NCBI GenBank assembly: GCA_964428815.1
Contig: CAYSAC010000002.1
Location: 5,062-69,061, forward strand
Reading direction: 5' to 3'
Origin: an uncultured Acidimicrobiaceae bacterium
GTDB lineage: Bacteria; Actinomycetota; Acidimicrobiia; Acidimicrobiales; CAYSAC01
DNA length: 64,000 bases
Positions 4,805-63,020 of the stretch are shown here, one piece after another; positions within the stretch are counted from its first letter, which is position 1; every line of letters starts with the position of its first letter. The notes below the pieces were generated by a model. It ran no database searches. It was not told where the DNA came from and worked only from the letters and a program-made list of their open reading frames with translations. The translations under genes were made by a program, and so were the position numbers.

Positions 4805-4919
4805 CGGGCCGAGCGTAGACCGTGGCCCCGTCCCGCCAAGGCGCGAACCGAGATAGCGAGGCCCTGGCGCTGCGGTCTGCGCCTGCAGCCACGGGGAGCT
4901 CGCTGAGTACGCTGCGCCG

Positions 4920-7481: not shown

Positions 7482-7531
7482 GGCGCGGGACCGGCAACAC
7501 TCTACGCACCAACTATCCCCGAGAGGTCGCG

Positions 7532-9642: not shown

Positions 9643-9643
9643 G

Positions 9644-19113: not shown

Positions 19114-19143
19114 CCCATAGGGTCGGCGGCCGTGCGAGTTGCG

Positions 19144-22183: not shown

Positions 22184-22375
22184 TAGTGGCAGCGCGGCTC
22201 TGTGAGGCTGGGACCGAGCGACGCCGTCGTGTACCGGAGGTGCGATGGGCCCCTTCGGAGGGGCGGGCGCGACATGGCGATCATGCTAAGCGGCGATCGA
22301 CCACGTCCGATCCGCTCTACGCGGCTGCCGACATCGCTCGTCGTCTGACGCCAGATCGGCTGGCATGCTGTCGCG

Positions 22376-23101
22376 GTGACCAGACCGGACCGTGCGACGA
22401 GGGGTATGCGCGAGTACTGGGACGCGCGCGCCCGCGAGAACGCAGCGTGGTACGTCGATACGAGCTTGTCGTACGACGACCCCGACATGCAGCGCTTCTT
22501 CGCGAACGGCGAGGTGATCGTCGACGAGGCGCTGCGCGAAGCGCTATCGCTCCCCAACGGGGGACATCTCGCGGTTGAGATCGGTTCCGGTCTCGGCCGC
22601 CTGTGCAAAGCCCTTGCGCCACGGTTCGACCGGGTGGTCGGTGTGGACATCTCACCCACGATGGTCGAGCGTGCGCAGGTCCTCGTCGAGGATCCGAACG
22701 TCTCGTTCGTGCTCGGCGACGGGAGCTCGATCGTCGGGGTCGCAGATGGCGAGGCTGATCTCGTCTTGTCCTTCACGGTCTTCCAGCACATCCCGTCGGT
22801 CGCGGTCATTGACGGCTACCTGCGCGACGCGGGTCGCGTGCTCCGACCTGGTGGGCTTCTCGTGTTCCAGTGGAACAACGAGAAGGGCGCGGTGCGCTGG
22901 CGGCTGAGGCGGTGGTGGTTGGCGCTCTTGCAGCGGACGCGCGTCCGTCCAGAGCGCTACATGCGCCATGCTCCCGAGTTCCTCGGCAGCCGAGTGCCTG
23001 TCGCGCGGATCGAACGAGCGCTCACATCGGCCGGCTTCGAGCTCTTGACGACCAAGGGTACCGGGACGCTGTACGCCTGGGCCTGGGCGCGCCTCCGCTG
23101 A
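22376..23101 (+). CDS. Class I SAM-dependent methyltransferase
   Basis: AVEIGSGLGRLCKALAPRFDRVVGVDISPTMV, LVLSFTVFQHIP, LRPGGLLVFQW. An ATG at 22406 (MREYWDARAREN), preceded by GAGGGG, is an equally good start. Confidence 0.8.
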   Translation: MTRPDRATRGMREYWDARARENAAWYVDTSLSYDDPDMQRFFANGEVIVDEALREALSLPNGGHLAVEIGSGLGRLCKALAPRFDRVVGVDISPTMVERAQVLVEDPNVSFVLGDGSSIVGVADGEADLVLSFTVFQHIPSVAVIDGYLRDAGRVLRPGGLLVFQWNNEKGAVRWRLRRWWLALLQRTRVRPERYMRHAPEFLGSRVPVARIERALTSAGFELLTTKGTGTLYAWAWARLR

Positions 23102-23114
23102 CCGCAGGACTCCT

Positions 23115-24335
23115 TTAACGAAGAGCGGGAGGATCTTCATTCGTTGTGCTCAGGCGGCCGCCTAGATCAGCGACACCCGTGACGCTGGAGCGGCCGGTGA
23201 CGAAGAAGAGGATGGGCGGTGGCGGGACGGCAATCTTCGGGAAGGAAGGCGAGCCCAGCCCTACGTGGAGTGAGTATGACCCCGTCGCCAGCGCAACGGT
23301 GCACGAGATCCGCACCCGCAGCGATCCAGTGCCGGTGAAGCCTTCAAGCTCGTCGAGCAGCCACCGTTCGCCGTAGGCATGGACGCCTGACCCCGTGACG
23401 AGAGCGAGCCCGAGGATCGGTCTGTCGACCTTCTCGCGCATCGTGATCGATGCCTCGACGGTCATCGGGTCACCTGTCGCAAGGTGGCGGGTCGGCTCGC
23501 CGTCGAGTCCCACGAGCACGACGTCCTGAAGGTCGGCGGCGTCGATCGTCGCAGGCCCGGGCATCTCTACGGCATCGTTGGCATCGTCGATGTCGCGCGG
23601 CTCTCCGAGGAGCTCGTGGTAGGTCGACAGCGCCTCGACGGTGTCGCCGTCGTAGCGCACTGCGCCGTCGTGGATGACTATGGCTCGGTCGCAGAGCCGT
23701 CGTACGGCGTTCAGGTTGTGGGTGACGATGACGACTGTCGTACCCGACTCGCGCAACCGCTCCATGCGATCGAAGCACTTGAGCTGGAACGCGAGGTCAC
23801 CTACGGCGAGCACCTCGTCGATCAGCAGGACATCTGGATCCGCCATCGCAGAGACCGAGAACCCGAGGCGGACGAACATCCCCGATGAGTAGAACTTCAC
23901 AGGTGTGTCGAGGAAGTCCCCAATCTCGGCGAACGCCACGATCTCGTCGAAGCGTTCGTCGATCTGCTGGCGCGACAGCCCGAGGATCGCCCCGTTGACG
24001 TACACGTTCTCCCGACCAGTGAGCTCGGGATGGAAGCCCACACCGACGGAGATGAGCGGCGCGACGCGGCCCCGGACCTTGACCACGCCTTCGGTTGGTG
24101 CGGTGACGCCGGCCAGCATCTGCAGCAGGGTCGACTTGCCCGATCCGTTGCGCCCGATGATGCCGACGCAGTTGCCCCGCGCGATCTGGAAGCTCGCGTC
24201 GCGCAGGGCCCAGAGCGAGCTGCGCTTGGTCCGGTTGCGCAGGCGAAACAACCGGCTCACGAGCATCGGCGTGTCCTCGTACTTCACGTAGCGCTTGCCC
24301 ACGCCCGCGACGTCGATCGCGATCTGCTCGGTCAC
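23115..24335 (-). CDS. Polysaccharide-export ABC transporter ATP-binding protein (Wzt/TagH-like) with an extra ~160-aa C-terminal domain
   Basis: Walker A GRNGSGKSTLL, signature YSSGMFVRLGF, Walker B LLIDEVLAVGD. About 160 further residues follow the NBD. The GTG at 24335 overlaps the permease stop (GTGA). Confidence 0.85.
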   Translation of the reverse strand: MTEQIAIDVAGVGKRYVKYEDTPMLVSRLFRLRNRTKRSSLWALRDASFQIARGNCVGIIGRNGSGKSTLLQMLAGVTAPTEGVVKVRGRVAPLISVGVGFHPELTGRENVYVNGAILGLSRQQIDERFDEIVAFAEIGDFLDTPVKFYSSGMFVRLGFSVSAMADPDVLLIDEVLAVGDLAFQLKCFDRMERLRESGTTVVIVTHNLNAVRRLCDRAIVIHDGAVRYDGDTVEALSTYHELLGEPRDIDDANDAVEMPGPATIDAADLQDVVLVGLDGEPTRHLATGDPMTVEASITMREKVDRPILGLALVTGSGVHAYGERWLLDELEGFTGTGSLRVRISCTVALATGSYSLHVGLGSPSFPKIAVPPPPILFFVTGRSSVTGVADLGGRLSTTNEDPPALR

Positions 24336-25237
24336 AGCAGGTCGACGAACAGCCGGTCGAACCGTCGGTGGAGGTACACACCGATGACGAGCAGGCAGAC
24401 GCACCACCCGCCTGTCCAGAGGAGGGAGGTTGTCCAGCCCGGGTCAGCGCCGACCGTCGCTGCTCGGAAGGCCTCGACGATGCCGGTCACCGGGTTCGCC
24501 TCGATCCAGGGCCGAACCCGCCCGATCGCACTAAGCGGGTAGATCACGGGGGTGAGGTACAACCAGATGAGCAGGGCGGCCTGCACGAGGTAGCGGACAT
24601 CCCGGAAGTACACGTGAAGAGCCGAGAGCACGAGGGCGAAGCTGCCACCCAGGAGGAGCGGCAGCGCCATCGCTGGCAGCAACAGCAGCGTCCTGGGACC
24701 GATGCCGACGCCCGTGACGATCGTGGCCGCTATCAGCACAGCAACGCTGATCGCGAGACCGTAGGCAGCGGTCCACACCGTCACCAGCGGGAGGACCACC
24801 CGTGGGAAGTAGATCTTCGTCGTGAGACCTGCACCGTCGACGATGGAGGTTGCCCCGCCACTGATGATGCCGCTGAACGTGGCCCATGCGACGGTGCCCG
24901 ACAGCACGAACACGGCGTAGTCGCTGCCGGTCGCGAACTTGGCGATGCGGGGCACCACGAACGCAAGAGTTAACGCTTGAAGGAGCGGGAGCGCCGCCGC
25001 CCAGAGCAGCCCGAAGGACGCGCGCCGGTACCGGACGTAGAAGTCCTTGCGCGCAAGGATCGCTATGAGCTGGCGCGATCGCCAGGCAGAGGACAGCATG
25101 CTGCCCAACGATGGACGGCCGCCGTCGAGCGAGAAGCCCGCGGACGCGACCTCGTGGAACTCGTCGCTCTGCGCTCGTCCCCCGGTCGGTGCTGCGGCGG
25201 TCTCGCTCGTCGTCGGATCATCTGGTGTGGCAGGCAT
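24332..25237 (-). CDS. ABC-2-type polysaccharide-export permease (Wzm/TagG-like)
   Basis: LIAILARKDFYVRYRRASFGLLWAAALPLL, typical of ABC-2 exporters, followed by 6 hydrophobic helices. Translationally coupled to the ATPase. Confidence 0.8.
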   Translation of the reverse strand: MPATPDDPTTSETAAAPTGGRAQSDEFHEVASAGFSLDGGRPSLGSMLSSAWRSRQLIAILARKDFYVRYRRASFGLLWAAALPLLQALTLAFVVPRIAKFATGSDYAVFVLSGTVAWATFSGIISGGATSIVDGAGLTTKIYFPRVVLPLVTVWTAAYGLAISVAVLIAATIVTGVGIGPRTLLLLPAMALPLLLGGSFALVLSALHVYFRDVRYLVQAALLIWLYLTPVIYPLSAIGRVRPWIEANPVTGIVEAFRAATVGADPGWTTSLLWTGGWCVCLLVIGVYLHRRFDRLFVDLL

Positions 25238-25308
25238 GTGATCGCAGCCAGGTTGCCACAGACATCGCGTCAGGCTCGGAATCGACGAGCCACCGATAAT
25301 CTCCGGGG

Positions 25309-26241
25309 GTGGCAGAGGTCGATGTCGGTGTGGTGACCTTCAACACGCGAGACCTCACCGTGACTGCGCTGCAACGACTGCTGGCGACGACGACCAGAAG
25401 CACGATGCGGGTGCTCATCCACGACAACGCGTCAATCGATGGAACCGTCGACTCGCTGCGTGGGCAGGTGCCTGGTGTGGACATCGTCGCCTGCCCACAC
25501 AACCTCGGATTCGCGGCAGGGATGAACCGTCTCATCGCGCGATCGACCGCACCCTGGTTCCTCGCCCTCAACTCGGACGCTTGGCCGGAGCCCGGTGCGA
25601 TCGACGCACTCGTCGCTGCGGGGGAAGCGAACCCCTCCGCAGCCGCGATCGCGCCGCTGCTCTTGCGCCCCGATGGCTCGCTCGAGCACTCGACGCACGC
25701 CTTCCCGTCACTCAGCGTCGCGGCGATCACCGCGATCGGCGGCTACCGCACGCTGTGGCCACGTCTGTCGAATCGGCTGGGCTTGGTAGGTGCGTGGCAC
25801 CACGACGAGCCTCGTGATGTGGACTGGGCCGTGGGCGCGGCGTTGCTGATGCGCCGGTCAGCGATCGACGCCGTTGGTGGCTTCGACGAATCCTTCTTCA
25901 TGTACGCCGAGGATCTCGAATGGTGCTGGCGCGTGCGCGCTGCCGGCTGGACCATCCGGTTCGAGCCCGCCGCGGTGGTGCGCCATGTGGGGAACGCCTC
26001 GGGGACGCAGAACTATGGGAGCCAGCGTACCCGTGCCCACATCCACAACAGCTACCGCTTCTATCGCCGCGCTCATGGGCGGGTGGGCACGCTCGCCTAC
26101 CGTGCGCTGAGCGTCGGCGGTTGCGGTCGGTTGTACCTCCTGGCTCGCCTGCGAGGCGACAAGGGTGCACGCACCGAATGGGCGGATCACCTCCGGGCTC
26201 ACCTCAGCAGGGTGCCATCAACCGACGGACCACCCGTCTGA
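25309..26241 (+). CDS. GT2-family glycosyltransferase (WbbL/rhamnosyltransferase-like)
   Basis: VDVGVVTFNTRDLTVTAL, IHDNASIDGT, HNLGFAAGMN, GAALLMRRSAIDAVGGFDESFFMYAEDLEWCWR. Confidence 0.85.
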   Translation: MAEVDVGVVTFNTRDLTVTALQRLLATTTRSTMRVLIHDNASIDGTVDSLRGQVPGVDIVACPHNLGFAAGMNRLIARSTAPWFLALNSDAWPEPGAIDALVAAGEANPSAAAIAPLLLRPDGSLEHSTHAFPSLSVAAITAIGGYRTLWPRLSNRLGLVGAWHHDEPRDVDWAVGAALLMRRSAIDAVGGFDESFFMYAEDLEWCWRVRAAGWTIRFEPAAVVRHVGNASGTQNYGSQRTRAHIHNSYRFYRRAHGRVGTLAYRALSVGGCGRLYLLARLRGDKGARTEWADHLRAHLSRVPSTDGPPV

Positions 26242-26280
26242 GTCAAGAGGGCGTGGCCGTCCCCTTGGAGCTGGTAGCCG

Positions 26281-26940
26281 TCAACCCGGGTGTTCGAGGG
26301 GAGGTGGCGGGTCGCCTACCTGATCGTGAGCCTCGGTCTGCCCACCGCGTCCGAACGGCACACGTCTCGCAGGGTTGCCGCTCACGAGGGTGTGTGGTGG
26401 AACGTCTCGGTTCACGACGGAGTTCGGCGCGATGACCGAGCACGCACCGATCGTGATCGAGCCGACCAGGACACAGTTGTTGCCGATCCAGGCCCCGGTC
26501 TCGATGCGTAGGGGACCTCCGAGTATCAACGGCGTCGCCCAGGGCGGCGAACCGTCCTCCGCCGCCTGCCAGTCATGCATGCTGTCGGCGATCGTGCACC
26601 CGTGCCCGATGCCGGAGCGCGGTTCCAACACGATGCCGTTGAGCGCGACGAAGCGCGCGTTGTGACCGATGATGCAGCCGTCGCCGATCTCGAGCACCAC
26701 CTGGCCGTACGGCGCGAGTGCCTCGATGCAGAGGTAGGACCTGATCTCGACGTTCTCGCCGATCGCCACGCTGCCAGGGTTGTGGAGGGCCACCCAGGGG
26801 TGGTCGATGTGCGAGCCGGCGCCGAACCGCGCGAAGCGGTGAGCGAGCGGGTCGCCGGCGCGGACGGTGAGGAGTCGGTGGCCACGCCGCTCGACGGCTT
26901 CGGCCAATGGTTGTAGCCAACGACGCAGGCGGGCCTTCAT
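26281..26940 (-). CDS. Left-handed beta-helix (hexapeptide-repeat) acyl/acetyltransferase
   Basis: Hexapeptide repeats IGENVEIRSY, IGDGCIIGHN, IETGAWIGNNCVLVGSITIGACSVIAPNSVV, then PPHTLVSGNPARRV. The ATG at 26940 overlaps the upstream TGA (ATGA). Confidence 0.8.
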   Translation of the reverse strand: MKARLRRWLQPLAEAVERRGHRLLTVRAGDPLAHRFARFGAGSHIDHPWVALHNPGSVAIGENVEIRSYLCIEALAPYGQVVLEIGDGCIIGHNARFVALNGIVLEPRSGIGHGCTIADSMHDWQAAEDGSPPWATPLILGGPLRIETGAWIGNNCVLVGSITIGACSVIAPNSVVNRDVPPHTLVSGNPARRVPFGRGGQTEAHDQVGDPPPPLEHPG

Positions 26941-28505
26941 TGCCGCAGAGTACGGCTCACGACAGCCTGGAGCGCTTGGCGGTCGACCTTCCCGGTTGAC
27001 GTCTGGGGCAGCGCCTCCACGGCGATGATCGTCCCTGGGATCATGTAGCGAGGAAGGTGAGCGGCACAGTGGCGCTTCACCTCTGTCGGATCGACCGGCT
27101 CGGTGGTCGCCAGGACGGCGACAAGTGCGTTGCCGATCCGTTCGTCCGGGACGGGCACGACCACTGCCTCACGCACCGCGGGGTGTGATGTGAGAGCGGT
27201 CTCGATCTCACCCAACTCGATGCGATACCCGCGGCTCTTTACTTGATGATCGCGGCGTCCGAGGAATTCGAAAGACTCGCCGGGCAGCCGGCGGACGAGG
27301 TCGCCGGTGCGGTATGTGGGGTCCGGGAACCGGTCGTGCAGCGGGTTCTGACGCAGCGCCCGTGCGGTGCGCTCGGTGTCGCCCCAGTACCCCTGCATGA
27401 GGGTGGGTCCGCGGACCCAGAGCTCCCCGACCGCACCGACGGGCGTAGGCGACAGCTCGTCGTCGAGCGCGAACACCTCCTGATTCTCACACGCGACGCC
27501 AATCGGCAATGGACGGTCGTCCTCGAGATCGCCGTCGACGACGTAGTAGGTACAGACGTTGGTCTCGGTCGGTCCGTAGAGGTTCGCCAACACTGCGTGT
27601 GGTACGAGCGAACGCAGGCGTTGAAGGTGCTTGATCGGAAAGACCTCGCCCGCGAACAGCACCACACGAAGGCTGCGTAGGTCGTCTGCGCTCGCGCCAT
27701 CGACCAGCAACGTGAGGGCCGACGGCGTGGAGTACCAGACCGTGACACCGGTCTCGCGGATGGCGTTGGCCATCCCGGCGCCGAAGCCCGTCTCGTACGG
27801 TGCCAGCAGCCGCACCATCGCTCCGGCGAGAGCGGCGCCATACAGGTCGAACACCGACAAGTCGAAGTGAAAGGGTGCATGGTTGGCGAGCCGGTCGTCG
27901 CGACATACCTGGAACCGATCGACGGCCCACTCCGCGAACGCCAGCGCGTTCCGGTGGGTCAGCATCACCCCCTTGGGAGCGCCGGTCGAACCTGACGTGT
28001 AGAGCAGGTAGGCGAGATCTGTTTCCGAACCGTTGCGGAGGTCCGTTGGGGTGACCTGCTCGACATCCACCCACGACACCGCGGCATCGGCGAGGTCGGC
28101 CGACAGGCTGAGGATCTGCGTGCCCTCTTGGAGCGGGGCCAGCGCGTCTTGCACGTTCGGGTTGTCGGTGCACACGACTCGACAACCGGCATCAGCCACG
28201 ATGCGCGAGCCGCGTGCTGGTGGCGACTGCGGGTCAACGGGTACATAGGCGGCGCCGGTGCCGAGGATCCCGTAGAGCGCTGCGACCGCCGCGGTCGATT
28301 TCGCAGACCAAATCGCGACACGATCTCCGGGGTGCACGCCAAGCTCGGTGAGCGCCGCCGCGACCTGTGCGGACCGGGTGGCCAGATCGCCGTACGTGAG
28401 CGTCCCGTCGGCTGCCGAAACTGCGAGCCGATCGGGGTCATCCTCGGCGGCACGCAGCATCGCGCCGTGCAGGGTGAAGACCGCCCGCCCGCCCGCTGAC
28501 GTCAC
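26937..28505 (-). CDS. Free-standing adenylation enzyme (ANL superfamily; DltA/PltF-like carrier-protein ligase)
   Basis: A3 LAYLLYTSGSTGAPKGV, A4 FDLSVFDLYGAAL, A5 NLYGPTETNV, A7 YRTGD, A8 GRRDHQVKSRGYRIELGEIE, A10 PQTSTGKVDR. No C, T or TE domain is fused. The GTG at 28505 overlaps the upstream TGA. Confidence 0.85.
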   Translation of the reverse strand: MTSAGGRAVFTLHGAMLRAAEDDPDRLAVSAADGTLTYGDLATRSAQVAAALTELGVHPGDRVAIWSAKSTAAVAALYGILGTGAAYVPVDPQSPPARGSRIVADAGCRVVCTDNPNVQDALAPLQEGTQILSLSADLADAAVSWVDVEQVTPTDLRNGSETDLAYLLYTSGSTGAPKGVMLTHRNALAFAEWAVDRFQVCRDDRLANHAPFHFDLSVFDLYGAALAGAMVRLLAPYETGFGAGMANAIRETGVTVWYSTPSALTLLVDGASADDLRSLRVVLFAGEVFPIKHLQRLRSLVPHAVLANLYGPTETNVCTYYVVDGDLEDDRPLPIGVACENQEVFALDDELSPTPVGAVGELWVRGPTLMQGYWGDTERTARALRQNPLHDRFPDPTYRTGDLVRRLPGESFEFLGRRDHQVKSRGYRIELGEIETALTSHPAVREAVVVPVPDERIGNALVAVLATTEPVDPTEVKRHCAAHLPRYMIPGTIIAVEALPQTSTGKVDRQALQAVVSRTLRQ

Positions 28506-29662
28506 AGGCCCATGCTCCGAGCGACGAGACGACGCATCATGTCGGACGTTCCTGAGTACAGGTGACCACCGACGGCGTCGCGCAGACGTCGCTCGAGAGG
28601 CAGCTCGCGGGTGAAGCCGTAACCACCGTGCACTTGGAGGAGCCGCAACTGCCCTTGAACGATGGCGTCGGTCGCCACGAGCTTGACCGCAGCGGCGTAG
28701 CCGGCGTCGGCATCTCCGCGGTCGTAGCGCATCGCGGTCTCATACAGCAGCGCACGCGCTGCGTCCAGCGCCACTCGCGTGTCGACCAGCTTGTCGCTGA
28801 CGGCTTGGAAGGCGGCTATTGGCTGACCGAATTGGTGGCGCGCCCGTGCGTAGTCGCACGCTTCATCGAGCGACCGTTCCAGTGAGCCCAATGCACTCGC
28901 CATGATGAGCGAGCGCTCCCATTGCATCGACGTCATGAAGATGCGAGCGCCGCGCCCCTCCTTGCCGAGGAGCGCGGACTCATCGAGTCGTACGTCGTCG
29001 AGCAGGATCTCCGCCATCGGCGACGTTCGCAGCCCGAGCTTCTCGATCGGCCGTTCGACCTCGAGTCCCTTTGCCCCCGCTTCGACGAGGAACGCGCTCA
29101 CACCAAACGGTCCTTCGGTCCCGGGCTCGCGTGCGAAGACGATGAAGAGATCGGCGATCGGGGCGTTGGTGATGAGCGTTTTGCGGCCCCGGAGCACGTA
29201 GTCGCCGCCCTCTCGACGTGCGGCTGTCCTGAGTCCGAATGCGTCGCTGCCCGAATCGGGCTCCGTCATTGCGTGCAGCCCGATCCATTCGCCGCTGCAC
29301 AGTTTCGGCAGGTAGGTTCTTCGCTGCTCGTCGTTCCCGAAGTGCCACAGCGGGATGACAGCGCTCCACAGGTGGGCGTTCACGGAGAAGGTGAGCCCTC
29401 CGTCGTCACAGCCGTAGCCGAGCGCCTCCAGGACCACCGCCGTCGTCAAGTGGTCGGCGCCGCCTCCACCGTGCTCGACAGGCGCGGGGAGACCGCACAA
29501 TCCGAACGTCGCGCAACGGCGCCAACCTTCTGCCCAGAATTCACCACGAGCGTCGCGGCTTCCGATCTCTGGATCGTGCAGTTGCTCGCGCGCGAACCGG
29601 CGGGCGGCTTCCGCGAGATCGCGCTGGTCGTCCGAGAGCAGCGGCGAGGCCGTCGGCGACAC
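28502..29662 (-). CDS. Acyl-CoA-dehydrogenase-family flavoprotein (possibly acyl- or aminoacyl-carrier-protein dehydrogenase)
   Basis: 386 aa with ACAD-like N, middle and C domains (GLHAMTEPDSGSD, ITNAPIADLFIVFA, LQVHGGYGFTRELPLERRLRDA). First gene of a three-gene coupled unit. Confidence 0.85.
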   Translation of the reverse strand: MSPTASPLLSDDQRDLAEAARRFAREQLHDPEIGSRDARGEFWAEGWRRCATFGLCGLPAPVEHGGGGADHLTTAVVLEALGYGCDDGGLTFSVNAHLWSAVIPLWHFGNDEQRRTYLPKLCSGEWIGLHAMTEPDSGSDAFGLRTAARREGGDYVLRGRKTLITNAPIADLFIVFAREPGTEGPFGVSAFLVEAGAKGLEVERPIEKLGLRTSPMAEILLDDVRLDESALLGKEGRGARIFMTSMQWERSLIMASALGSLERSLDEACDYARARHQFGQPIAAFQAVSDKLVDTRVALDAARALLYETAMRYDRGDADAGYAAAVKLVATDAIVQGQLRLLQVHGGYGFTRELPLERRLRDAVGGHLYSGTSDMMRRLVARSMGL

Positions 29663-29804
29663 GGACAGCAGGATGCCATATCCTCTCGTCGGTCGCTGAC
29701 GGTCTCAGTGCGTGGACATCGCGAGGCGGAAATGTTCCGGCCCGCGCTTGTACGCTGCATGCGACCACATGGTCCCTTGCTCGCAGCCTTGCCTCGGAGG
29801 CACG

Positions 29805-30044
29805 TTGATCGACATCGAACCCCTACGGACCTTCATACGGCGCGAGTTCTTGTTCGACAGGAATGCAGACCTGCCCGACGATCTCGAGCTGTTCCCCAGC
29901 GTCCTCGATTCGCTCGGCGTCATGGAGCTGGTCGAGTTCGTGGAGGAGACGTACGCGGTCGAGCTCAACCAGCCTGACTTGGCAGCCGACAACTTTCGTA
30001 GCATCACGGCGATCGCCGAGCTGATCCAGCGGAAGACGGCGTGA
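29805..30044 (+). CDS. Stand-alone acyl/peptidyl carrier protein
   Basis: 79 aa from the TTG at 29805, preceded by GGAGG (29796-29800, 4-nt spacer). Phosphopantetheine site LDSLGVMELVEFVE (Ser codon 29910-29912). The track model starts at 29712, and an ATG at 29769 is an alternative. Confidence 0.65.
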   Translation: MIDIEPLRTFIRREFLFDRNADLPDDLELFPSVLDSLGVMELVEFVEETYAVELNQPDLAADNFRSITAIAELIQRKTA

Positions 30045-31057
30045 GGCCCGAGCACGCTCGCATCAGCGCCCGCATCCGACTGACCCGGCTCGCGCTCGAC
30101 GGCTGGGCTGCGCAGGTCCTGTTTGCCGCGAACGAGCTGGGGATCTTCGACCTGCTCGCCCGCAAGGGCGCGTCGTCGTCGGCCGCCGTGGCAGCGGAGC
30201 TCGGCACCGACCCGGATGCAACTCGTCGACTGCTCGGCGTGCTCTGTGCCGTCGGAGTGATCGAGCGCGACGGCGATCATTTCGACAACGGGCTCGGGGC
30301 GCGTGAGTTCCTGGTGTCAGGGACCGACGAGTCGATGGTCACCTGGGTGAACCTGATCGGCACATGGAACCAGACGTTCAGCCATCTAGCTGAGTCGGTG
30401 CGATCCGGTGAGCCGGCGGAGGTGCCGGAGGAGCACCTTGGGAGGTCCGACGACTACACGCGCACGTTCATCCTCGGCATGCACGACTACGCGCTCGGAC
30501 CCGGTCATGAGCTGGCGCAGCACCTCGACCTCACCGAGCGCCGCCGCCTTCTCGATGTCGGCGGCGGGCCGGGGACGTACTCCGTGCTGCTCACCGAGAC
30601 GAACCCGGAGCTGCATTGCACGATCTTCGATCTGCCCGAAGTGGTACGAATCGCGGCGGAGGTTGTCAGCGCTCGAGGCCTGCAGGATCGGGTCGACATG
30701 CACGCCGGCGATTACCACGCCGATGAGTTCCCCACCGGATTCGACGCCGTGCTCGTTTCGAACACGCTGCACCAAGAGGACGACGAGTCGTGTCTGCGCA
30801 TCTTGAAGGCCTCGTTCAGGTCCCTCGATCCAGGTGGTCTCATGATCGTTCACGCCATGCCGCTCGGCGAGGATCAGGACGGGCCGCTCTGGCCGGCATT
30901 GCACAACCTATTGATGCTCCTCGTGTATCGCGGCGGACGCGCCTACACCGCCGGTCAGTACTGCCAGCAGCTGGTCGATGCCGGCTTCGAGGATCCTGAG
31001 GTGCACGCGATGTCGGCGTTCAACGCCGGGTCGTACATCACCGCTCACCGCCCATAG
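30041..31057 (+). CDS. Family-2 (small-molecule type) SAM-dependent O-methyltransferase
   Basis: N-terminal winged-helix/dimerisation region, then LLDVGGGPGTYSVLL, IFDLPEVV, GDYHADEFPTGFDAVLVSNTLH. The GTG overlaps the carrier-protein TGA. Confidence 0.8.
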   Translation: MRPEHARISARIRLTRLALDGWAAQVLFAANELGIFDLLARKGASSSAAVAAELGTDPDATRRLLGVLCAVGVIERDGDHFDNGLGAREFLVSGTDESMVTWVNLIGTWNQTFSHLAESVRSGEPAEVPEEHLGRSDDYTRTFILGMHDYALGPGHELAQHLDLTERRRLLDVGGGPGTYSVLLTETNPELHCTIFDLPEVVRIAAEVVSARGLQDRVDMHAGDYHADEFPTGFDAVLVSNTLHQEDDESCLRILKASFRSLDPGGLMIVHAMPLGEDQDGPLWPALHNLLMLLVYRGGRAYTAGQYCQQLVDAGFEDPEVHAMSAFNAGSYITAHRP

Positions 31058-31093
31058 GCGCAGCGAGCGACGCCTGTACGCTACCGATTCGCC

Positions 31094-31900
31094 ATGGAGA
31101 CCGTCTTCTCGCTCGACCGAACTCGGCTGGACGCGATAGCCGAGGCTGATGGGGAGGGCTACCGGAGCGCACAACCGTTTCCACACATCGTCATCGACGA
31201 CTTCCTCCCGGCGGAAGTGCTCGAGCTGGTGTTGGGCGAGTTCCCCTCAGCGCATGCGATCGACTGGATGCAGTTCGACAGCGGCACAGAGAAGAAGCTC
31301 GCGAGCACGGGCGAAGACGGGATGGGTCCTGCAACGCGGAGGTTGCTCGCGGAGCTGAACGGCGCCATCCTGATCGACTTCCTGACCAAGCTGACCGGCA
31401 TCGAAGGCTTGGTTCCCGATCCCCACTTTGTCGGCGGCGGTCTGCACCAGATCGAGCGGGGTGGCTTCCTCGAGGTGCACGCCGACTTCAACCTCCACCC
31501 TTTGACCGGGCTGGAGCGCCGGCTCAACCTGCTCGTCTACCTCAACCGAGACTGGGACTCGTCGTGGGGTGGTGCGCTCGAGCTGTGGAGTGCGGACATG
31601 AGGCGCTGCGAGGCGAGGATCGATCCCGTCTTCAACCGGTGCGTGGTGTTCAACACGACCGACCGGTCGTTCCACGGGCACCCGACGGCGCTCAGGTGCC
31701 CTGAAGGGAGGACGCGCAAGTCGCTCGCGCTGTACTACTACGCACGGGACGCCGACCCGGCCGACGAGCGCGGCGCGCACAACACGATCTTCAAGGACCG
31801 ACCGAGCCGGTTGCGCAGGTTGGGGGAGGACCTTCTGCCTCCGGTCGCCGTGCGGGGCTTGCGACGCGTCAGGCGCGCGAACCCCGGACAGCGCCGGTGA
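31094..31900 (+). CDS. 2OG-Fe(II) oxygenase superfamily protein (prolyl-4-hydroxylase-like)
   Basis: H-x-D in GGFLEVHADFN, distal His in DRSFHGHP, LNLLVYLNRDWDSSWGGALELW. Confidence 0.7.
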   Translation: METVFSLDRTRLDAIAEADGEGYRSAQPFPHIVIDDFLPAEVLELVLGEFPSAHAIDWMQFDSGTEKKLASTGEDGMGPATRRLLAELNGAILIDFLTKLTGIEGLVPDPHFVGGGLHQIERGGFLEVHADFNLHPLTGLERRLNLLVYLNRDWDSSWGGALELWSADMRRCEARIDPVFNRCVVFNTTDRSFHGHPTALRCPEGRTRKSLALYYYARDADPADERGAHNTIFKDRPSRLRRLGEDLLPPVAVRGLRRVRRANPGQRR

Positions 31901-32778
31901 AGGCGACCGCGCTTGCCAAGCGAGCGGTGCGGCGCGCCATCCGAGCGGTGGCGACGTGGGCTGAAGGAGACGATCGCAGGCCCCCCTCGGCAGTGCTTGG
32001 GGCTCAGCCGGATCCGATCAACGTGAGCGCCTTGTACGCCTCGCTCCGCGGCGCGGGGTCGACGGTGCGCGCCCAGTACCTGTGGGGTGTTCTGCACGCA
32101 GCTCGTGCCGCATCGAGCGCCGATCTCGACGGATTCAGTGCGCTCGAGTTCGGAGTCGCGGGCGGCAACGGCCTCTTAGAGCTGGAGGCGGCGGCGAGGG
32201 TTGCGGAGGAGATCTACGCGGTCGAGATCGAGGTCGTCGGCTTCGACAGCGGCGCGGGCATGCCGGCGCCGATCGACCACCGTGACGTGCCGTGGGTCAT
32301 CAAGCCAGGTTTGCTCGCCATGGACGAGCCTCGCCTCCGAGCGCGTCTCACCCGTGCGGACCTGGTGCTCGGTCCCGTGGTCGACACTGTGCCGCAGTGG
32401 CTCGCCGGGACGCACCGCCCGGTCGGGTTCATCGCCTTCGACCTCGACTACTACTCGTCGACGATCGATGCCTTCCAGGTGCTCGATGCCGCCGACCTTG
32501 CGCTGCTGCCTCGCATCGTGTGCTACTTCGACGACCTGTTCGGCTACGGGTGGAGTGACGTAAACGGCGAGCGGGCCGCGATCGTCGACTTCAACGACGC
32601 CCATCGATGCCGCAAGATCGCGAAGATCCACGGCCTGCGGTACGAGCTGCCACTCGAAGACGGCATGCGCCCCTGGCCTGAGCTGATGTACCTCGCCCAC
32701 ATCCTCGACCACGCCCGCTACAACGACTTCGAGCAGACCGTGTCCGAGGACTTCCTCGACGCGAACGGTCTCGCCTGA
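31897..32778 (+). CDS. Hypothetical protein, possibly Rossmann/class I methyltransferase-like (TylF-like)
   Basis: 293-aa ORF with GC3 bias, coupled to the oxygenase by GTGA. Only weak cues: ALEFGVAGGNGLLEL resembles SAM motif I, plus FIAFDLDYYSST. No confident family assignment. Confidence 0.45.
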   Translation: MKATALAKRAVRRAIRAVATWAEGDDRRPPSAVLGAQPDPINVSALYASLRGAGSTVRAQYLWGVLHAARAASSADLDGFSALEFGVAGGNGLLELEAAARVAEEIYAVEIEVVGFDSGAGMPAPIDHRDVPWVIKPGLLAMDEPRLRARLTRADLVLGPVVDTVPQWLAGTHRPVGFIAFDLDYYSSTIDAFQVLDAADLALLPRIVCYFDDLFGYGWSDVNGERAAIVDFNDAHRCRKIAKIHGLRYELPLEDGMRPWPELMYLAHILDHARYNDFEQTVSEDFLDANGLA

Positions 32779-32842
32779 GCAATGGAGCGGGAAAGCTCGG
32801 TCAGTTCGGATCGTCGCCCCGCCGAAGCCGGCCCGGTCCACG

Positions 32843-34453
32843 TTGCTTGAGGTCCGCGCGGTCGATCTCGCAGTCGTCATCCCGACCCGCGACCGTTGGC
32901 AGATCCTCCAGCGGACGGTTGACGCACTCGCTGCCCAGAGCGCGCAAGGCGCCGAAGTCATCGTCGTCGTCGACGGCGGCGACACACCGGCGCCGGCCGT
33001 CACGGGGGCACGCGTCTTGCAGCAGGAACACGCCGGGCCCGGTGCCGCGCGCAACCGTGGCGTGCGGGCCACGGAGCGTCCGCTCGTCCTCTTTCTCGGG
33101 GACGACATCATCCCGACCGTTGACCTCGTCGCCGCCCACCTCGATGCCCACCGTCGCCACCCCGAGGCCACGAGCGCCGTCCTCGGCCGCACCGACTGGC
33201 ACCCTGGTGTCGCGGACCAGGCGCTCATGCGCTGGCTCGACTCGTCCGGCGGCCAGTTCGACTTCCAGGGCATCGTCGGTGACGACGCTGGGTGGGGTCG
33301 CTTCTATTCCTCGAACGTGTCGCTCAAGCGTTCGCTCTTCGTCGACGTCGGCGGGTTCGACGAGGATTTCACGTTCGATTACGAGGACCTCGATATCGCG
33401 TGGCGGCTGCACCGGAAGGGGATGCAGCTCTGGTACGAGCGGGGCGCTCTTGCTCACCACCTGCACAGCTATGACTGGCAGGGGATCCGCCGTCGCTACG
33501 AGAGCCGCGCCCGTGCGGAGCGGCTCATGCAGTCCAAGCACGACTGGTTCCAGCCGTGGTTCGCTGAGATCGCCGGCAGCGCAGCACGTCAGCCGCCCGT
33601 GTCCGACCTTTGGCCCCGCGTGGTCGAACGGGTGCCCGGGTGGCCGCGATCGTTGCGCCGACTGGCGCGCGATCGTGCCAACCGGTGGTACCAGCAGCAG
33701 ATCGCTCCGACCTTCCTGGCCACGTGGGAGGGGCAGCCCGACCTTGAAGAGCTGCAGGCCTACCTCGGTGACGACTTCGACGTCGACCTGCTCCATGGGC
33801 ACGTCACTGCCGTGGACGCGGAGGAGGAGGCAGCGGGCGACGAGGCGACGTTCTACCGCACGAGCCGGATGTACTTGTACGACCTCACCGCGTTCGCCAT
33901 GACAGGCACGAAGCGCCCGTACCTCAACGACCTGCGCCGCTTCGTGCCACCGGGGTCGTCGCTGCTCGACTACGGCTGTGGGGTCGGCACCGACGGGTTG
34001 CGACTGCTGGCCGAGGGCCATCGTGTCTCCTTCGCTGACTTCGCCAACCCGAGCACGGAGTACCTCCGGTGGCGGCTGTCCCGGCGCGGATCAGATGCCC
34101 CTGTCTATGACCTCGATCGTGACGAGCTCCCTGGAGGGTTCGACGCGGCGTACTCCCTCGATGTCATCGAGCACGTGGATGACCCGTTCGACTTCCTCGA
34201 CCGCCTCGAGCGCCAGGCCGGCATCGTGATGGTCAACCTGCTCGAACCGGATCCACACGACACCCACCTGCACAGGCCGCTCCCGATTCCCGACCTGCTC
34301 GACCACGCGGCATCGCTCGGCATCCTGCGATACAGGCGCTACCACGGGCGCTCGCACCTGGTGATCTACCGCACCCGCCGGCCGGGGCGGCGGGGCCAGG
34401 TTCGCAGCGTGCTGCAGCGACACCTGGGCTCTCGCCTGCGCCCCAGCGTCTGA
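32843..34453 (+). CDS. Bifunctional GT2 glycosyltransferase / class I SAM methyltransferase fusion
   Basis: N-terminal LAVVIPTRDRWQILQRTVDAL, VIVVVDGGD, LFLGDDIIP. C-terminal LLDYGCGVGTDGLRLL (near 33961-33996), AYSLDVIEHVDDP. TTG start from the track. Confidence 0.8.
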   Translation: MLEVRAVDLAVVIPTRDRWQILQRTVDALAAQSAQGAEVIVVVDGGDTPAPAVTGARVLQQEHAGPGAARNRGVRATERPLVLFLGDDIIPTVDLVAAHLDAHRRHPEATSAVLGRTDWHPGVADQALMRWLDSSGGQFDFQGIVGDDAGWGRFYSSNVSLKRSLFVDVGGFDEDFTFDYEDLDIAWRLHRKGMQLWYERGALAHHLHSYDWQGIRRRYESRARAERLMQSKHDWFQPWFAEIAGSAARQPPVSDLWPRVVERVPGWPRSLRRLARDRANRWYQQQIAPTFLATWEGQPDLEELQAYLGDDFDVDLLHGHVTAVDAEEEAAGDEATFYRTSRMYLYDLTAFAMTGTKRPYLNDLRRFVPPGSSLLDYGCGVGTDGLRLLAEGHRVSFADFANPSTEYLRWRLSRRGSDAPVYDLDRDELPGGFDAAYSLDVIEHVDDPFDFLDRLERQAGIVMVNLLEPDPHDTHLHRPLPIPDLLDHAASLGILRYRRYHGRSHLVIYRTRRPGRRGQVRSVLQRHLGSRLRPSV

Positions 34454-34587
34454 GCGGAGACGGCACGACGATCGCGCGCGTCGTTCATAGACGACGCCGG
34501 TGGTCGCGGGTGATCCGGGTCGGCGGCCCACTCCGCCCTGCACGCCCCGCCGGTCGCTGCAACTGCTTGACTATCCAGGTGACATCA

Positions 34588-35361: not shown

Positions 35362-35468
35362 GCCCACGCGCTCGCGGCCGAAGCGAAGGCGACCGACCCC
35401 ACCGGCGTCACACCGACACGTGAACGGCGGCCGATCAGTAATCACGACCGTCGCCGTATCCTTCCCAG

Positions 35469-36416: not shown

Positions 36417-36445
36417 CGCGGCGACCTGTCGCGCAGGCGCGCTTC

Positions 36446-37431: not shown

Positions 37432-37460
37432 GGCCGAGCCGCGGAGCGCGGGTTCGTCGC

Positions 37461-39769: not shown

Positions 39770-39778
39770 ACGGCTGGA

Positions 39779-40576: not shown

Positions 40577-40641
40577 GCCCCCACTATCGCATGCGTCGAG
40601 CGAGCCACCGCCACGGGTGGCGGCCGTGTTACGAAGGTGCG

Positions 40642-56824: not shown

Positions 56825-56825
56825 C

Positions 56826-63009: not shown

Positions 63010-63020
63010 CTGCTTCCCCT

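What the first reader, a model, noticed from the sequence alone, without database searches (positions are those of the whole stretch)
26281..30044. Adenylation enzyme + carrier protein + acyl-CoA-dehydrogenase + LbH acyltransferase module embedded in the glycan island
**Seen.**
- On the minus strand, an ACAD-family flavoprotein (28502-29662), a free-standing 522-aa adenylation enzyme with all A-core motifs (26937-28505) and a hexapeptide-repeat acyltransferase (26281-26940) are chained by GTGA/ATGA overlaps.
- 142 bp away, divergently transcribed, sits a 79-aa carrier protein with a DSL phosphopantetheine site behind a GGAGG RBS.
- There is no condensation, KS or TE domain and no DltB/DltD-like partner in the window.

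**Established.**
- A stand-alone A enzyme, a stand-alone carrier protein and an ACAD-type dehydrogenase form the architecture that turns L-prolyl-S-PCP into pyrrolyl-2-carboxyl-S-PCP (PltF/PltL/PltE, RedM/RedO/RedW, CloN4/CloN5/CloN3).
- In clorobiocin and coumermycin that acyl group is finally esterified to a sugar.
- An A enzyme plus carrier alone is the DltA/DltC logic for D-alanylating teichoic acids.

**Inference.** The island may attach a carrier-protein-activated, dehydrogenated (amino)acyl group, possibly pyrrole-2-carboxyl, to a surface glycan. I do not know that decoration for bacterial polysaccharides. I could not read the A-domain specificity code reliably by eye.
Basis: partly seen in the sequence, partly recalled or inferred. 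Interest (0 to 1): 0.8.

Follow-up and report, generated by a model that had tools for sequence, protein, structure and literature searches.

The report
Proline-to-pyrrole acylation cassette in glycan island
A conserved five-gene cassette inside a cell-surface polysaccharide gene island loads proline on a small carrier protein, oxidises it to a pyrrole-type acid, adds a methyl group, and probably hangs the product on the sugar polymer, a decoration not so far described for bacterial glycans.

Summary
In detail: all four ORFs, their GTGA/ATGA overlaps, the 142-bp divergent gap and the GGAGG-TTG 79-aa carrier are there.

- The adenylation enzyme has the 10-residue code DLFYLALVCK, the published consensus of stand-alone L-proline enzymes (PltF: DLLYLALVC).
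- The flavoprotein belongs with the prolyl-carrier-protein dehydrogenases (AnaB, PigA, RedW, Bmp3). It keeps their catalytic Glu and lacks the acyl-CoA-dehydrogenase Glu.

A PF00891 methyltransferase is translationally coupled to the carrier gene.

The cassette methyltransferase–carrier / dehydrogenase–adenylation enzyme recurs in every relative examined, spanning several Actinomycetota lineages:
- It is nearly always next to a hexapeptide acyltransferase, and once next to an SGNH enzyme instead.
- About two-thirds of these loci lie in glycan clusters; three do not.
- The same parts occur in a Bacteroidales-labelled glycan locus and in an acidobacterial NRPS-like locus.

Most likely the cassette makes a methylated pyrrole-2-carboxyl (or dehydroprolyl) thioester that the hexapeptide enzyme transfers to the polysaccharide before ABC export. 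The transfer, the acceptor, the oxidation state and the methyl position are all inferred. I rate it a new variant of a known kind, interest about 0.6.

The parts
26281..26940 (-). Hexapeptide-repeat (LbH) acyltransferase, 219 aa; proposed to move the carrier-bound acyl group to the acceptor
   Evidence: Pfam Hexapep scores 48.6 bits against a cutoff of 27. The best NCBIfam hits are WcaF and NeuD/PglB/VioB-type sugar acetyltransferases, and the best PDB hits are MAT/GAT-type O-acetyltransferases. The start overlaps the A-enzyme stop as ATGA. Orthologs (44-75% id) lie on the same contigs as ACAD/OMT orthologs. His122 is invariant in 49 orthologs.
26937..28505 (-). Free-standing adenylation enzyme, 522 aa, predicted L-proline specific
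   Evidence: TIGR01733 scores 388.8 bits against a cutoff of 317.4. The best single-domain PDB hit is PltF 6o6e at 354 bits. The 10-residue code DLFYLALVCK was read from the alignment to PltF (DLLYLALVC) and PigI. It matches the published stand-alone L-Pro consensus L(L/F)YLALVC (PMC3874040). The same code occurs in 61 of 82 related loci.
28502..29662 (-). ACAD-fold flavoprotein, 386 aa, prolyl-carrier-protein dehydrogenase family
   Evidence: NCBIfam gives RedW 381 and PigA 377 bits against 271 for the best acyl-CoA DH model. PDB gives AnaB 330 and PigA 284 bits. W248-E249-R250 aligns with the PigA Glu that is Ala in mutant 6af6, and is invariant in 22 clade members. The canonical YEGT Glu is Ser370. 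The NJ tree places it inside the AnaB-containing family.
29663..29804 (.). 142-bp divergent intergenic region between the ACAD operon and the carrier operon, with GGAGG six nt before the TTG start
   Evidence: Sequence read directly. The same divergent layout is seen in all clade loci.
29805..30044 (+). 79-aa type II carrier protein with the LDSLG phosphopantetheine site
   Evidence: PDB hits are PCP 2my5 at 30.8 bits, then CcbZ, PigG and PltL. NCBIfam hits are ACP models. Orthologs with a conserved DSLG occur in all clade loci. The public record has the same 79-aa gene model. An Sfp-type PPTase lies next to the cassette in relative L008.
30041..31057 (+).
   Evidence: Pfam gives Methyltransf_2 98.6 bits plus Dimerisation 52 bits. 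The start overlaps the carrier stop as GTGA. Orthologs (55-82% id) are adjacent to the carrier gene in every clade locus. The GGGPG SAM motif and S240/N241/L243/H244/Q245/E246 are invariant in 71 orthologs.
31094..31900 (+). 2OG-Fe(II) oxygenase, 268 aa; same operon, specific to this window's version
   Evidence: Pfam 2OG-FeII_Oxy_3 scores 68 bits. PDB hits to prolyl hydroxylases are only weak. No ortholog was found in any related locus.
31897..32778 (+). Unknown 293-aa protein, start overlapping the oxygenase stop; possibly a TylF/CalS11-like sugar O-methyltransferase
   Evidence: No Pfam or NCBIfam hit. The only PDB hit is CalS11, a TDP-rhamnose 3'-O-methyltransferase, at E 1.2e-3. It is absent from related loci.
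32843..34453 (+). GT2 glycosyltransferase fused to a methyltransferase domain, 536 aa; candidate maker of the acceptor sugar
   Evidence: Pfam Glycos_transf_2 plus Methyltransf_12/23. An ortholog (614 bits) lies directly beside the cassette in L008, and a weaker relative (174 bits) lies in L006.
23115..25237 (-). Wzt (430 aa, with Wzt_C glycan-binding domain) and Wzm ABC exporter for the polymer
   Evidence: ABC_tran plus Wzt_C, the latter at 45.2 bits against a cutoff of 30.4. ABC2_membrane, and the galactan Wzm model at 67 bits. The same pair stands beside the cassette on the P0266 contig.
25309..26241 (+). GT2 glycosyltransferase, 310 aa, immediately downstream of the LbH on the opposite strand
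   Evidence: Pfam Glycos_transf_2 scores 54.9 bits. Relatives lie near the cassette in L011/L089 (193 bits) and L088.

Best explanation
The finding is one half of a self-contained five-gene cassette in two divergent, translationally coupled operons: carrier protein–methyltransferase, and dehydrogenase–adenylation enzyme–LbH acyltransferase.

Proposed steps:
1. The adenylation enzyme activates L-proline and loads it on the phosphopantetheine arm of the 79-aa carrier protein. Specificity is shown by sequence; the loading itself is inferred.
2. The ACAD-fold flavoprotein oxidises the prolyl thioester. The likely product is pyrrolyl-2-carboxyl-S-carrier (four electrons, as PltE/RedW/PigA/Bmp3). 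It might stop at dehydroprolyl (two electrons, as AnaB). Family and catalytic residue are shown; the oxidation state is inferred.
3. The PF00891 methyltransferase adds one methyl group, either to the ring (N, C, or O after hydroxylation) or conceivably to the acceptor. Its presence, coupling and intact active-site motifs are shown; its substrate is unknown.
4. The LbH enzyme uses the acyl-S-carrier protein, as LpxA/LpxD use acyl-ACP, to esterify a sugar hydroxyl. The acceptor would be the methylated, sulfated polysaccharide, or its nucleotide- or lipid-linked precursor, acylated in the cytoplasm. This step is inferred.
5. Wzm/Wzt then export the polymer.
For: **Proline specificity.** The code DLFYLALVCK matches the published stand-alone L-Pro consensus and PltF. 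It is conserved across 82 related loci.

**Dehydrogenase.** The best models are RedW and PigA, about 110 bits above any acyl-CoA DH model. The best structures are AnaB, PigA and Bmp3. The catalytic Glu249 is invariant and the acyl-CoA DH Glu is replaced. The clade is monophyletic within the prolyl-CP dehydrogenase family.

**Carrier.** It resembles prolyl carriers and keeps the conserved Ser. A PPTase lies next to the cassette in L008.

**Cassette.**
- The 4-nt overlaps are present.
- OMT-CP/ACAD-A is found in all clade loci from Solirubrobacteraceae, Thermoleophilaceae, Microthrixaceae and unclassified Actinomycetota.
- 21 contigs are shared between the ACAD and OMT hit lists.
- An LbH is adjacent in all but L004.

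**Glycan context.** It holds in the window and in L006, L011/L089, L088, the P0018 contig and the P0266 contig. L008 has one GT2-MT. The same parts occur in a remote glycan locus with DegT (L085).

**LbH and OMT follow the acyl group.** They stay with the Pro cassette in non-glycan loci (L002, L010) and in an acidobacterial NRPS-like locus (L038).
Against: - No step has been tested biochemically, and all relatives are uncultured.
- Three clade loci (L002, L004, L010) have no glycan genes within the sequence held for them (10 kb flanks for L002 and L004, a 13-kb contig for L010).
- L004 has an SGNH enzyme instead of an LbH.
- The LbH is most similar to acetyl-CoA-dependent O-acetyltransferases.
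- LbH (PaaY) and SGNH (TesA) folds include thioesterases (own knowledge), and a hydrolase releases the free pyrrole acid in chalkophomycin.
- The ACAD scores below the RedW/PigA equivalog cutoffs (381/377 against 650/500), and its closest solved relative is the two-electron enzyme AnaB.
- A 42%-identical methyltransferase sits in a glycan operon without any Pro cassette (L093), so the methyltransferase may act on sugar rather than ring.
- No PPTase is encoded in the window.
Confidence: 0.5

Rival explanations
1. The cassette makes a free or small-molecule-bound product, such as a methylated pyrrole-2-carboxylic acid or its ester or amide. The LbH or SGNH partner acts as a thioesterase or small-molecule acyltransferase. 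On this reading, the location in glycan islands reflects co-mobilisation and not function.
For: L002, L004 and L010 carry the full cassette without glycan genes nearby. L004 has an SGNH enzyme, and L002 has a flavin halogenase/monooxygenase-like gene two genes away. L038 places OMT+LbH+ACAD+A beside A-T and P450-A-T-TE proteins. ChmF releases free N-hydroxypyrrole-2-carboxylate from its carrier. A 50%-identical methyltransferase lies in a natural-product-like locus (L092).
Against: Six to seven of about ten independent clade loci are inside glycan clusters of different composition and export type, either Wzx or Wzm/Wzt. The remote L085 locus again combines the parts with DegT, GT2 and GT4. The window LbH resembles sugar O-acetyltransferases, not PaaY-type proteins. 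On the P0266 contig the A gene overlaps a GT4 gene.
Confidence: 0.22
2. The flavoprotein works like AnaB and stops after a two-electron oxidation. The transferred group would then be a dehydroprolyl or 1-pyrroline-5-carboxyl unit rather than an aromatic pyrrole. The rest of the pathway is as in the best explanation.
For: AnaB is the best PDB match (330 against 284 bits for PigA). In the NJ tree the clade lies in the large family that contains AnaB, while PigA and Bmp3 branch outside it.
Against: Identity to AnaB is only 41.8%, against 39.3% to PigA. The NCBIfam RedW and PigA models are the top hits. The family next to AnaB is mostly attached to NRPS-like genes, where pyrrole starters are the known outcome (own knowledge). 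An imine or enamine ester on a surface glycan would be hydrolytically labile (inference).
Confidence: 0.2
3. The LbH is an ordinary acetyl-CoA-dependent O-acetyltransferase of the glycan. The proline-derived group would be transferred by another, unrecognised enzyme, or used elsewhere.
For: The best hits are acetyl-CoA enzymes: WcaF, maltose/galactoside O-acetyltransferases and Vat. LbH acetyltransferases are common in glycan clusters, and several loci carry extra copies. LbH partners are not all orthologous: only 27-57 bits in L002 and L088.
Against: ATGA coupling to the A gene in the window. An LbH stays with the cassette where there are no glycan genes (L002, L010) and in L038. No other candidate transferase is conserved across the clade.
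Confidence: 0.12
4. The module is a fatty-acid or D-alanine-type system: a fatty acyl-AMP ligase with a beta-oxidation ACAD, or a DltA/DltC aminoacylation.
For: General AMP-binding and ACAD folds. The DltA subfamily model scores 299 bits.
Against: The amino-acid adenylation model passes its cutoff, while the DltA and fatty-acid ligase models are far below theirs. The code is an exact Pro code. The ACAD lacks the acyl-CoA DH catalytic Glu and has the prolyl-CP DH Glu. There is no DltB or DltD in the window.
Confidence: 0.02

Closest known systems
Thiotemplated proline-to-pyrrole cassettes: PltF/PltL/PltE, RedM/RedO/RedW, PigI/PigG/PigA, Bmp4/Bmp1/Bmp3
   Same: A stand-alone Pro-specific A enzyme (code one residue from PltF), a stand-alone ~80-aa carrier, and an ACAD-fold dehydrogenase with the same catalytic Glu.
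   Different: No KS, C, halogenase or TE partner in the window. The partners are instead a PF00891 methyltransferase and an LbH acyltransferase, and the context is a polysaccharide island. The ACAD scores below the RedW/PigA equivalog cutoffs and forms its own clade.
Clorobiocin/coumermycin CloN3-N5 with CloN1/N2/N7 (pyrrolyl-2-carboxyl ester on noviose; own knowledge)
   Same: A carrier-made pyrrole-2-carboxyl group that ends as an ester on a sugar and carries a methyl group (5-methylpyrrole).
   Different: There the transfer runs through a second carrier, a KAS III-like enzyme and an alpha/beta-hydrolase, and the methyl comes from a radical-SAM enzyme. The acceptor is a deoxysugar of an antibiotic. 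Here the candidates are an LbH enzyme and a PF00891 methyltransferase, and the acceptor would be a polymer. None of this was compared by sequence here.
AnaC/AnaD/AnaB of anatoxin-a biosynthesis
   Same: The closest solved structure to the flavoprotein (330 bits, 41.8% identity). It has the same trio of Pro-A enzyme, carrier and oxidase.
   Different: AnaB stops at the pyrroline stage and feeds a PKS. No PKS is present here.
Carrier-protein-dependent decoration of envelope polymers: DltABCD (D-alanyl teichoic acids), AlmEFG (glycyl lipid A, PMC4278540), V. cholerae O1 RfbKLMNO tetronate on perosamine (own knowledge)
   Same: An A-type ligase plus a small carrier protein that supplies an acyl or aminoacyl group to a cell-surface glycoconjugate, encoded in or near the glycan genes.
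   Different: Those systems transfer unmodified D-Ala or Gly, or a short hydroxy acid. None has a prolyl dehydrogenase. The transferases are MBOAT/DltD or LpxL-like, which were tested here and are absent.
LpxA/LpxD (own knowledge)
   Same: LbH-fold acyltransferases that take their acyl group from an acyl carrier protein and place it on a sugar hydroxyl or amine.
   Different: The window LbH scores only 30-36 bits on the LpxA/LpxD models, and is closer to MAT/GAT/WcaF acetyltransferases.

Membership tests
Prolyl-carrier-protein loading/oxidation cassette (PltF/L/E type) | Stand-alone A enzyme with the L-Pro specificity code L(L/F)YLALVC | tested here: met
   The code is DLFYLALVCK, from the alignment to PltF and PigI. 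The consensus comes from PMC3874040. It is conserved in related loci.
Prolyl-carrier-protein loading/oxidation cassette (PltF/L/E type) | Free-standing ~80-90 aa carrier protein with a DSL phosphopantetheine serine | tested here: met
   79 aa with LDSLG. The PDB hits are PCP, PigG, PltL and CcbZ. The Ser is conserved in 84/84. The Pfam PP-binding score is below cutoff (18.3 against 20.8).
Prolyl-carrier-protein loading/oxidation cassette (PltF/L/E type) | ACAD-fold flavoprotein with the catalytic Glu of PigA/Bmp3/AnaB and without the YEGT Glu of acyl-CoA dehydrogenases | tested here: met
   W248-E249-R250 aligns with PigA MIWEK, which is Ala in mutant 6af6. The sequence has YSGTS instead of YEGT. 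Both features are invariant in 22 clade members.
Prolyl-carrier-protein loading/oxidation cassette (PltF/L/E type) | Score above the NCBIfam equivalog cutoff for RedW (650) or PigA (500) | tested here: not met
   381.4 and 377.1 bits. It is a related clade, not an equivalog.
Prolyl-carrier-protein loading/oxidation cassette (PltF/L/E type) | Four-electron oxidation of prolyl-S-carrier to pyrrolyl-2-carboxyl-S-carrier | not testable with these tools
   Needs intact-protein MS. The phylogeny is ambiguous between AnaB-type and PigA-type.
Prolyl-carrier-protein loading/oxidation cassette (PltF/L/E type) | Hand-over to a PKS/NRPS module (KS, C) or a halogenase | tested here: not met
   No KS, C, TE or halogenase domain in any coding-like ORF of the 64-kb window.
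Dlt-type D-alanylation | DltB (MBOAT) and DltD partners, and a D-Ala-specific ligase | tested here: not met
   No MBOAT or DltD in the window. The DltA models score 299.6/283 bits against cutoffs of 476/560. The code is a Pro code.
Beta-oxidation acyl-CoA dehydrogenase / fatty acyl ligase | C-terminal YEGT catalytic Glu, with a fatty-acid ligase model above cutoff | tested here: not met
   Ser370 replaces the Glu. All acyl-CoA ligase and ACAD equivalog models are far below their cutoffs.
Hexapeptide-repeat (LbH) acyltransferases, MAT/GAT/WcaF group | Hexapeptide repeats and a conserved catalytic His | tested here: met
   Hexapep scores 48.6 bits against a cutoff of 27. His122 is invariant in 49 orthologs. 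Its equivalence to the catalytic His of MAT/GAT is assigned from memory and was not superposed.
Hexapeptide-repeat (LbH) acyltransferases, MAT/GAT/WcaF group | Acyl donor: acetyl-CoA or acyl-S-carrier protein | not testable with these tools
   Only gene coupling and co-occurrence speak for the carrier as donor.
PF00891 small-molecule SAM methyltransferases | Dimerisation domain, GxGxG SAM motif, and a catalytic His in the LHxxxD/E motif | tested here: met
   Methyltransf_2 98.6 bits and Dimerisation 52 bits. DVGGGPG and S-N-x-L-H244-Q-E are invariant in 71 orthologs. The role of the His is by analogy with plant COMT (own knowledge).

The most novel reading that the evidence does not exclude
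A previously undescribed class of glycan decoration. Methylated pyrrole-2-carboxyl esters, made from proline on a dedicated carrier protein, would be installed directly from that carrier by an LbH acyltransferase. The acceptors would be sulfated, methylated envelope polysaccharides of soil Actinomycetota, and, with the same parts, glycans of other phyla. Because the window's Wzt carries a Wzt_C glycan-binding domain, the aromatic acyl group could even be the non-reducing-end cap that licenses export.
Probability: 0.35. Interest if true: 0.8.

Novelty: new variant of a known kind. Interest (0 to 1): 0.6.

Why it matters
Known acyl decorations of bacterial surface glycans are acetate, short hydroxy acids, amino acids and a few pyroglutamate-like groups. 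I know of no carrier-protein-made heteroaromatic ester (own knowledge). The full-text searches I ran found no paper describing one.

If true, natural-product logic (A enzyme, carrier, flavin dehydrogenase, tailoring methyltransferase) would have been recruited as a portable five-gene unit for cell-envelope chemistry in abundant, uncultured soil lineages.

It would also give:
- a defined, small and expressible gene set for in vitro reconstitution;
- a UV-active chemical marker for such glycans;
- a new donor type for LbH acyltransferases;
- a warning for genome mining, since Pro-A/PCP/ACAD trios are routinely read as pyrrole natural-product starters while many sit in polysaccharide loci.

Tried and rejected
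- **Literature searches.** Three full-text searches for a pyrrole-2-carboxyl or prolyl-carrier link to polysaccharides returned nothing relevant.
- **Naming the organism.** Exact-sequence cluster look-up gave no names or accessions. The window's species is not among the GTDB representatives; the best ACAD match there is 67%.
- **Mis-framed query.** My first local search used a mis-framed carrier query. It was repeated correctly.
- **Wrong catalytic Glu.** I first took Glu218 as the catalytic base, by analogy with isovaleryl-CoA dehydrogenase. The PigA E-to-A mutant 6af6 showed that the relevant residue is Glu249.
- **Insensitive annotation.** Single-sequence phmmer annotation of glycan genes in 90 loci proved too insensitive to give statistics. 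It missed GT2 and DegT in L085. I therefore counted only loci with Pfam-level annotation.
- **Methylated atom.** I tried to infer it from the nearest solved methyltransferases. The hits are O-, N-, C- and S-methyltransferases at similar scores, so no call is possible.
- **2OG oxygenase.** It has only 19-26-bit PDB hits to prolyl hydroxylases and is absent from all relatives. A hydroxy-to-methoxy route is therefore not a general feature.
- **Other scans.** tRNA and Rfam scans of the window were empty.
- **Not attempted.** Structure prediction, because LbH and PF00891 folds would not discriminate donors or substrates.

Full report
**1. Observation**

The window is high-GC DNA, with GC 0.66-0.72 and the island itself slightly lower at 0.66-0.68.

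All four ORFs of the finding are present at the stated coordinates and have coding-type codon-position GC. The junctions read as described:
- The ACAD stop and A-enzyme start share GTGA.
- The A-enzyme stop and LbH start share ATGA.
- The carrier starts at TTG 29805, six nt after GGAGG, giving 79 aa and a 142-bp divergent gap.

The public record behind the window uses the same 522-aa and 79-aa gene models. Pfam scans of every coding-like ORF of the 64 kb found no condensation, KS or TE domain, no MBOAT/DltB, no DltD and no PPTase.

One thing was missed. The carrier's stop codon overlaps the GTG start (GTGA, 30041-30044) of a PF00891 methyltransferase at 30041-31057.

**2. What the proteins are**

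*Adenylation enzyme.* It passes the amino-acid-adenylation model (388.8 bits, cutoff 317.4). Its best single-domain solved relative is the proline ligase PltF (354 bits).

I read the ten specificity residues from the phmmer alignment of the A4-A5 region to PltF and PigI. The window gives D-L-F-Y-L-A-L-V-C, with the A10 Lys. PltF gives DLLYLALVC and PigI gives DLFYIAWVC.

[quoted passage not shown] The match is exact.

*Flavoprotein.* It scores 381 and 377 bits on the RedW and PigA prolyl-PCP dehydrogenase models, against 271 for the best acyl-CoA dehydrogenase model. It stays below their equivalog cutoffs.

Its best solved relatives are AnaB (330 bits) and PigA (284 bits). Bmp3 (251 bits) is also a pyrrole-forming enzyme.

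The PigA mutant entry 6af6 differs from 5zw0 by Glu to Ala in MIWEK. That residue aligns with Glu249 of the window protein in MQWER. W248-E249-R250 is invariant in 22 clade members. The YEGT glutamate of ordinary acyl-CoA dehydrogenases is invariantly Ser370.

*Carrier protein.* It is weak on Pfam (18.3 bits). However, it hits type II PCPs in the PDB, including PigG, PltL and the proline carrier CcbZ. Its DS(L/M)G serine is universal in the family.

*LbH.* It is closest to WcaF, NeuD and maltose/galactoside O-acetyltransferases. His122 is invariant among 49 orthologs.

*Methyltransferase.* It has the dimerisation domain, the GGGPG SAM motif and an invariant S-N-x-L-H244-Q-E motif in 71 orthologs. 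Its nearest solved relatives methylate O, N, C or S at similar scores.

**3. Comparative evidence**

ACAD homologs of 59-71% identity are numerous in soil metagenomes and MAGs of Actinomycetota. I examined every one with enough flanking DNA:

| Locus | Source or lineage |
|---|---|
| L002 | forest soil |
| L004 | Actinomycetota MAG |
| L006 | Solirubrobacteraceae |
| L008, L010 | Actinomycetota |
| L011/L089 | Thermoleophilaceae |
| L012 | Microthrixaceae |
| L088 | not determined |
| P0018 contig | not determined |
| 200-kb contig | reached independently from an LbH ortholog |

All of them have the same core: methyltransferase and carrier on one strand, and dehydrogenase then A enzyme on the other. 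The 4-nt overlaps are usually the same.

Other points of conservation:
- An LbH gene is adjacent in all loci except L004, where an SGNH/GDSL gene follows the A gene.
- The LbH is orthologous to the window's (220-270 bits) in L006, L008, L010, L011/L089 and the 200-kb contig. It belongs to another LbH subfamily in L002 and L088.
- L008 adds an Sfp-type PPTase and an ortholog of the window's GT2-methyltransferase fusion.

Context varies:
- Six loci are full glycan clusters: the window, L006, L011/L089, L088, the P0018 contig and the 200-kb contig. They carry GT2/GT4, sulfotransferases, methyltransferases and either Wzx or Wzm/Wzt.
- L008 has one GT.
- L002, L004 and L010 have no glycan genes nearby.

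**4. The wider family**

A scan of one genome per species with the clade profile returned 80 loci. At 46-53% identity the ACAD is found across Acidobacteriota, Chloroflexota, Actinomycetota and others. It is almost always beside an A enzyme with the same proline code (61 of 82 exact, most others one or two changes) and a small carrier.

In an unbootstrapped NJ tree rooted on an acyl-CoA dehydrogenase:
- The window clade is monophyletic.
- It is sister to two loci with carrier-ACAD-A operons. One of them is fused to an EPS operon: GT4, DUF2334 and UDP-glucose dehydrogenase (L091).
- It lies inside a large family that contains AnaB.
- PigA and Bmp3 branch outside that family.

Two distant loci carry the same accessory parts:
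- L085, labelled Bacteroidales, has LbH, GNAT, carrier, ACAD, PF00891 methyltransferase and A enzyme, then DegT, GT2 and GT4.
- L038, a Sulfotelmatobacter MAG, has a NusG paralog, PF00891 methyltransferase, LbH, ACAD and A enzyme. These are followed by A-T and P450-A-T-TE proteins, with no condensation domain and no glycan genes.

So the methyltransferase and an LbH travel with the proline cassette whatever the final acceptor.

**5. The island**

- Bases 1-13 kb hold a Wzy-type set: Bac_transf, Wzy_C, a Wzz-like protein, a tyrosine-kinase-type ATPase and GT4s.
- Bases 13-48 kb hold an ABC-transporter-type set. It comprises an NTP-transferase, at least five GT2 and three GT4, more than ten methyltransferases, four sulfotransferases, three sulfatase-like proteins, an epimerase, and Wzm/Wzt.
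- Wzt has a Wzt_C glycan-binding domain.
- No sugar aminotransferase is present, which favours an O-ester over an amide here.

**6. Mechanism, with shown and inferred steps marked**

*Shown by sequence and comparison:*
- a proline-specific A enzyme, a prolyl-type carrier, and a prolyl-carrier dehydrogenase with an intact catalytic residue;
- a methyltransferase and an LbH with intact motifs;
- translational coupling of the genes;
- conservation of the set as a unit, and frequent embedding in glycan clusters.

*Inferred:*
- that the oxidation goes to the pyrrole;
- where the methyl goes;
- that the LbH takes the acyl group from the carrier, as LpxA/LpxD do with acyl-ACP (own knowledge);
- that the acceptor is a sugar of the polymer, acylated in the cytoplasm before Wzm/Wzt export.

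I put this at 0.5.

**7. Rivals**

- Release or transfer to a small molecule: 0.22. It is supported by the three non-glycan loci, the SGNH variant, L038 and the ChmF precedent.
- A two-electron AnaB-like product: 0.2.
- The LbH as a plain acetyltransferase: 0.12.
- Fatty-acid or Dlt readings: refuted by the code, the catalytic residues and the absent partners.

**8. Comparison and novelty**

The first three enzymes work like, and by the tested features belong with, the PltF/PltL/PltE-type proline-to-pyrrole cassettes. They are not equivalogs of RedW or PigA, and they lack the PKS/NRPS hand-over.

The closest chemical analogy is the methylpyrrolyl ester on noviose in clorobiocin, but that uses different transfer and methylation enzymes (own knowledge).

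The closest functional analogies for envelope polymers are Dlt, AlmEFG (PMC4278540) and the V. cholerae O1 tetronate genes (own knowledge). None of these oxidises its cargo.

I found no report of a pyrrole-type acyl group on a bacterial polysaccharide, and I know of none.

It is a new variant of a known kind, interest 0.6.

Noticed in passing
window 15790-16719, 18196-19233, 40558-41946, 46674-47339 (sulfotransferases); 16757-18232, 35469-36416, 37461-38939 (sulfatase-like): The island encodes four sulfotransferases and three sulfatase/phosphodiesterase-fold proteins, together with more than ten methyltransferases. This points to a sulfated, heavily methylated polysaccharide. Sulfotransferases also accompany the cassette in L088, L089, the P0018 contig and the P0266 contig.
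   Followed up: partly
window 23115-24407: The Wzt ATPase carries a Wzt_C glycan-binding domain (45.2 bits, cutoff 30.4). In known systems this domain recognises a non-reducing-end cap (own knowledge).
   Followed up: no
window 1-13043: A second, Wzy-type polysaccharide gene set lies directly next to the ABC-transporter-type set. It holds Bac_transf 1212-2051, Wzy_C 3275-5026, a BY-kinase-type ATPase 5969-6727, a weak Wzz 6720-7628 and several GT4.
   Followed up: no
window 31094-31900 and 31897-32778: A 2OG-Fe(II) oxygenase has only weak similarity to prolyl hydroxylases. Translationally coupled to it is an unknown 293-aa protein whose only hit is the sugar O-methyltransferase CalS11, at E 1e-3. 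The pair sits between the cassette's methyltransferase and the GT2-MT gene and has no counterpart in any related locus.
   Followed up: partly
L091 9759-14095; L090 9756-12738: The sister group of the window clade has carrier-ACAD-A(Pro code) operons without a methyltransferase or an LbH. In L091 the A gene overlaps a GT4 gene of an EPS operon: DUF2334, UDP-glucose dehydrogenase, PqqD and NTP_transf_5. Proline cassettes in polysaccharide loci may be more general than this clade.
   Followed up: partly
L038 6006-19140 and sister acidobacterial loci (L031, L035, L037, L054, L055, L066, L081): Acidobacterial loci combine an LbH directly upstream of ACAD-A(Pro) with A-T and P450-A-T-TE proteins but no condensation domain. 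L038 also has a NusG paralog and a PF00891 methyltransferase. The LbH might be the bond-forming enzyme there.
   Followed up: partly
window 22001-40000: GC content of the central island is 0.66-0.68, against 0.69-0.72 in the flanks. This is compatible with acquisition from another lineage. No mobile-element genes, tRNA or Rfam hits were seen.
   Followed up: no
window 18706-20223(+) and 44015-45859(+): In two long ORFs the Pfam domains cover only the C-terminal part: GT4 at residues 159-482, and a methyltransferase at residues 321-459. The N-terminal parts overlap neighbouring genes, so the true starts are probably far downstream of the first start codon.
   Followed up: no
window 52656-54560, 55334-57860, 60898-63906: The island ends near a DUF4012 protein. 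Housekeeping genes follow: purF-like amidophosphoribosyltransferase, purM, a response regulator, a ParA-like ATPase and a 2-oxoglutarate dehydrogenase E1.
   Followed up: no
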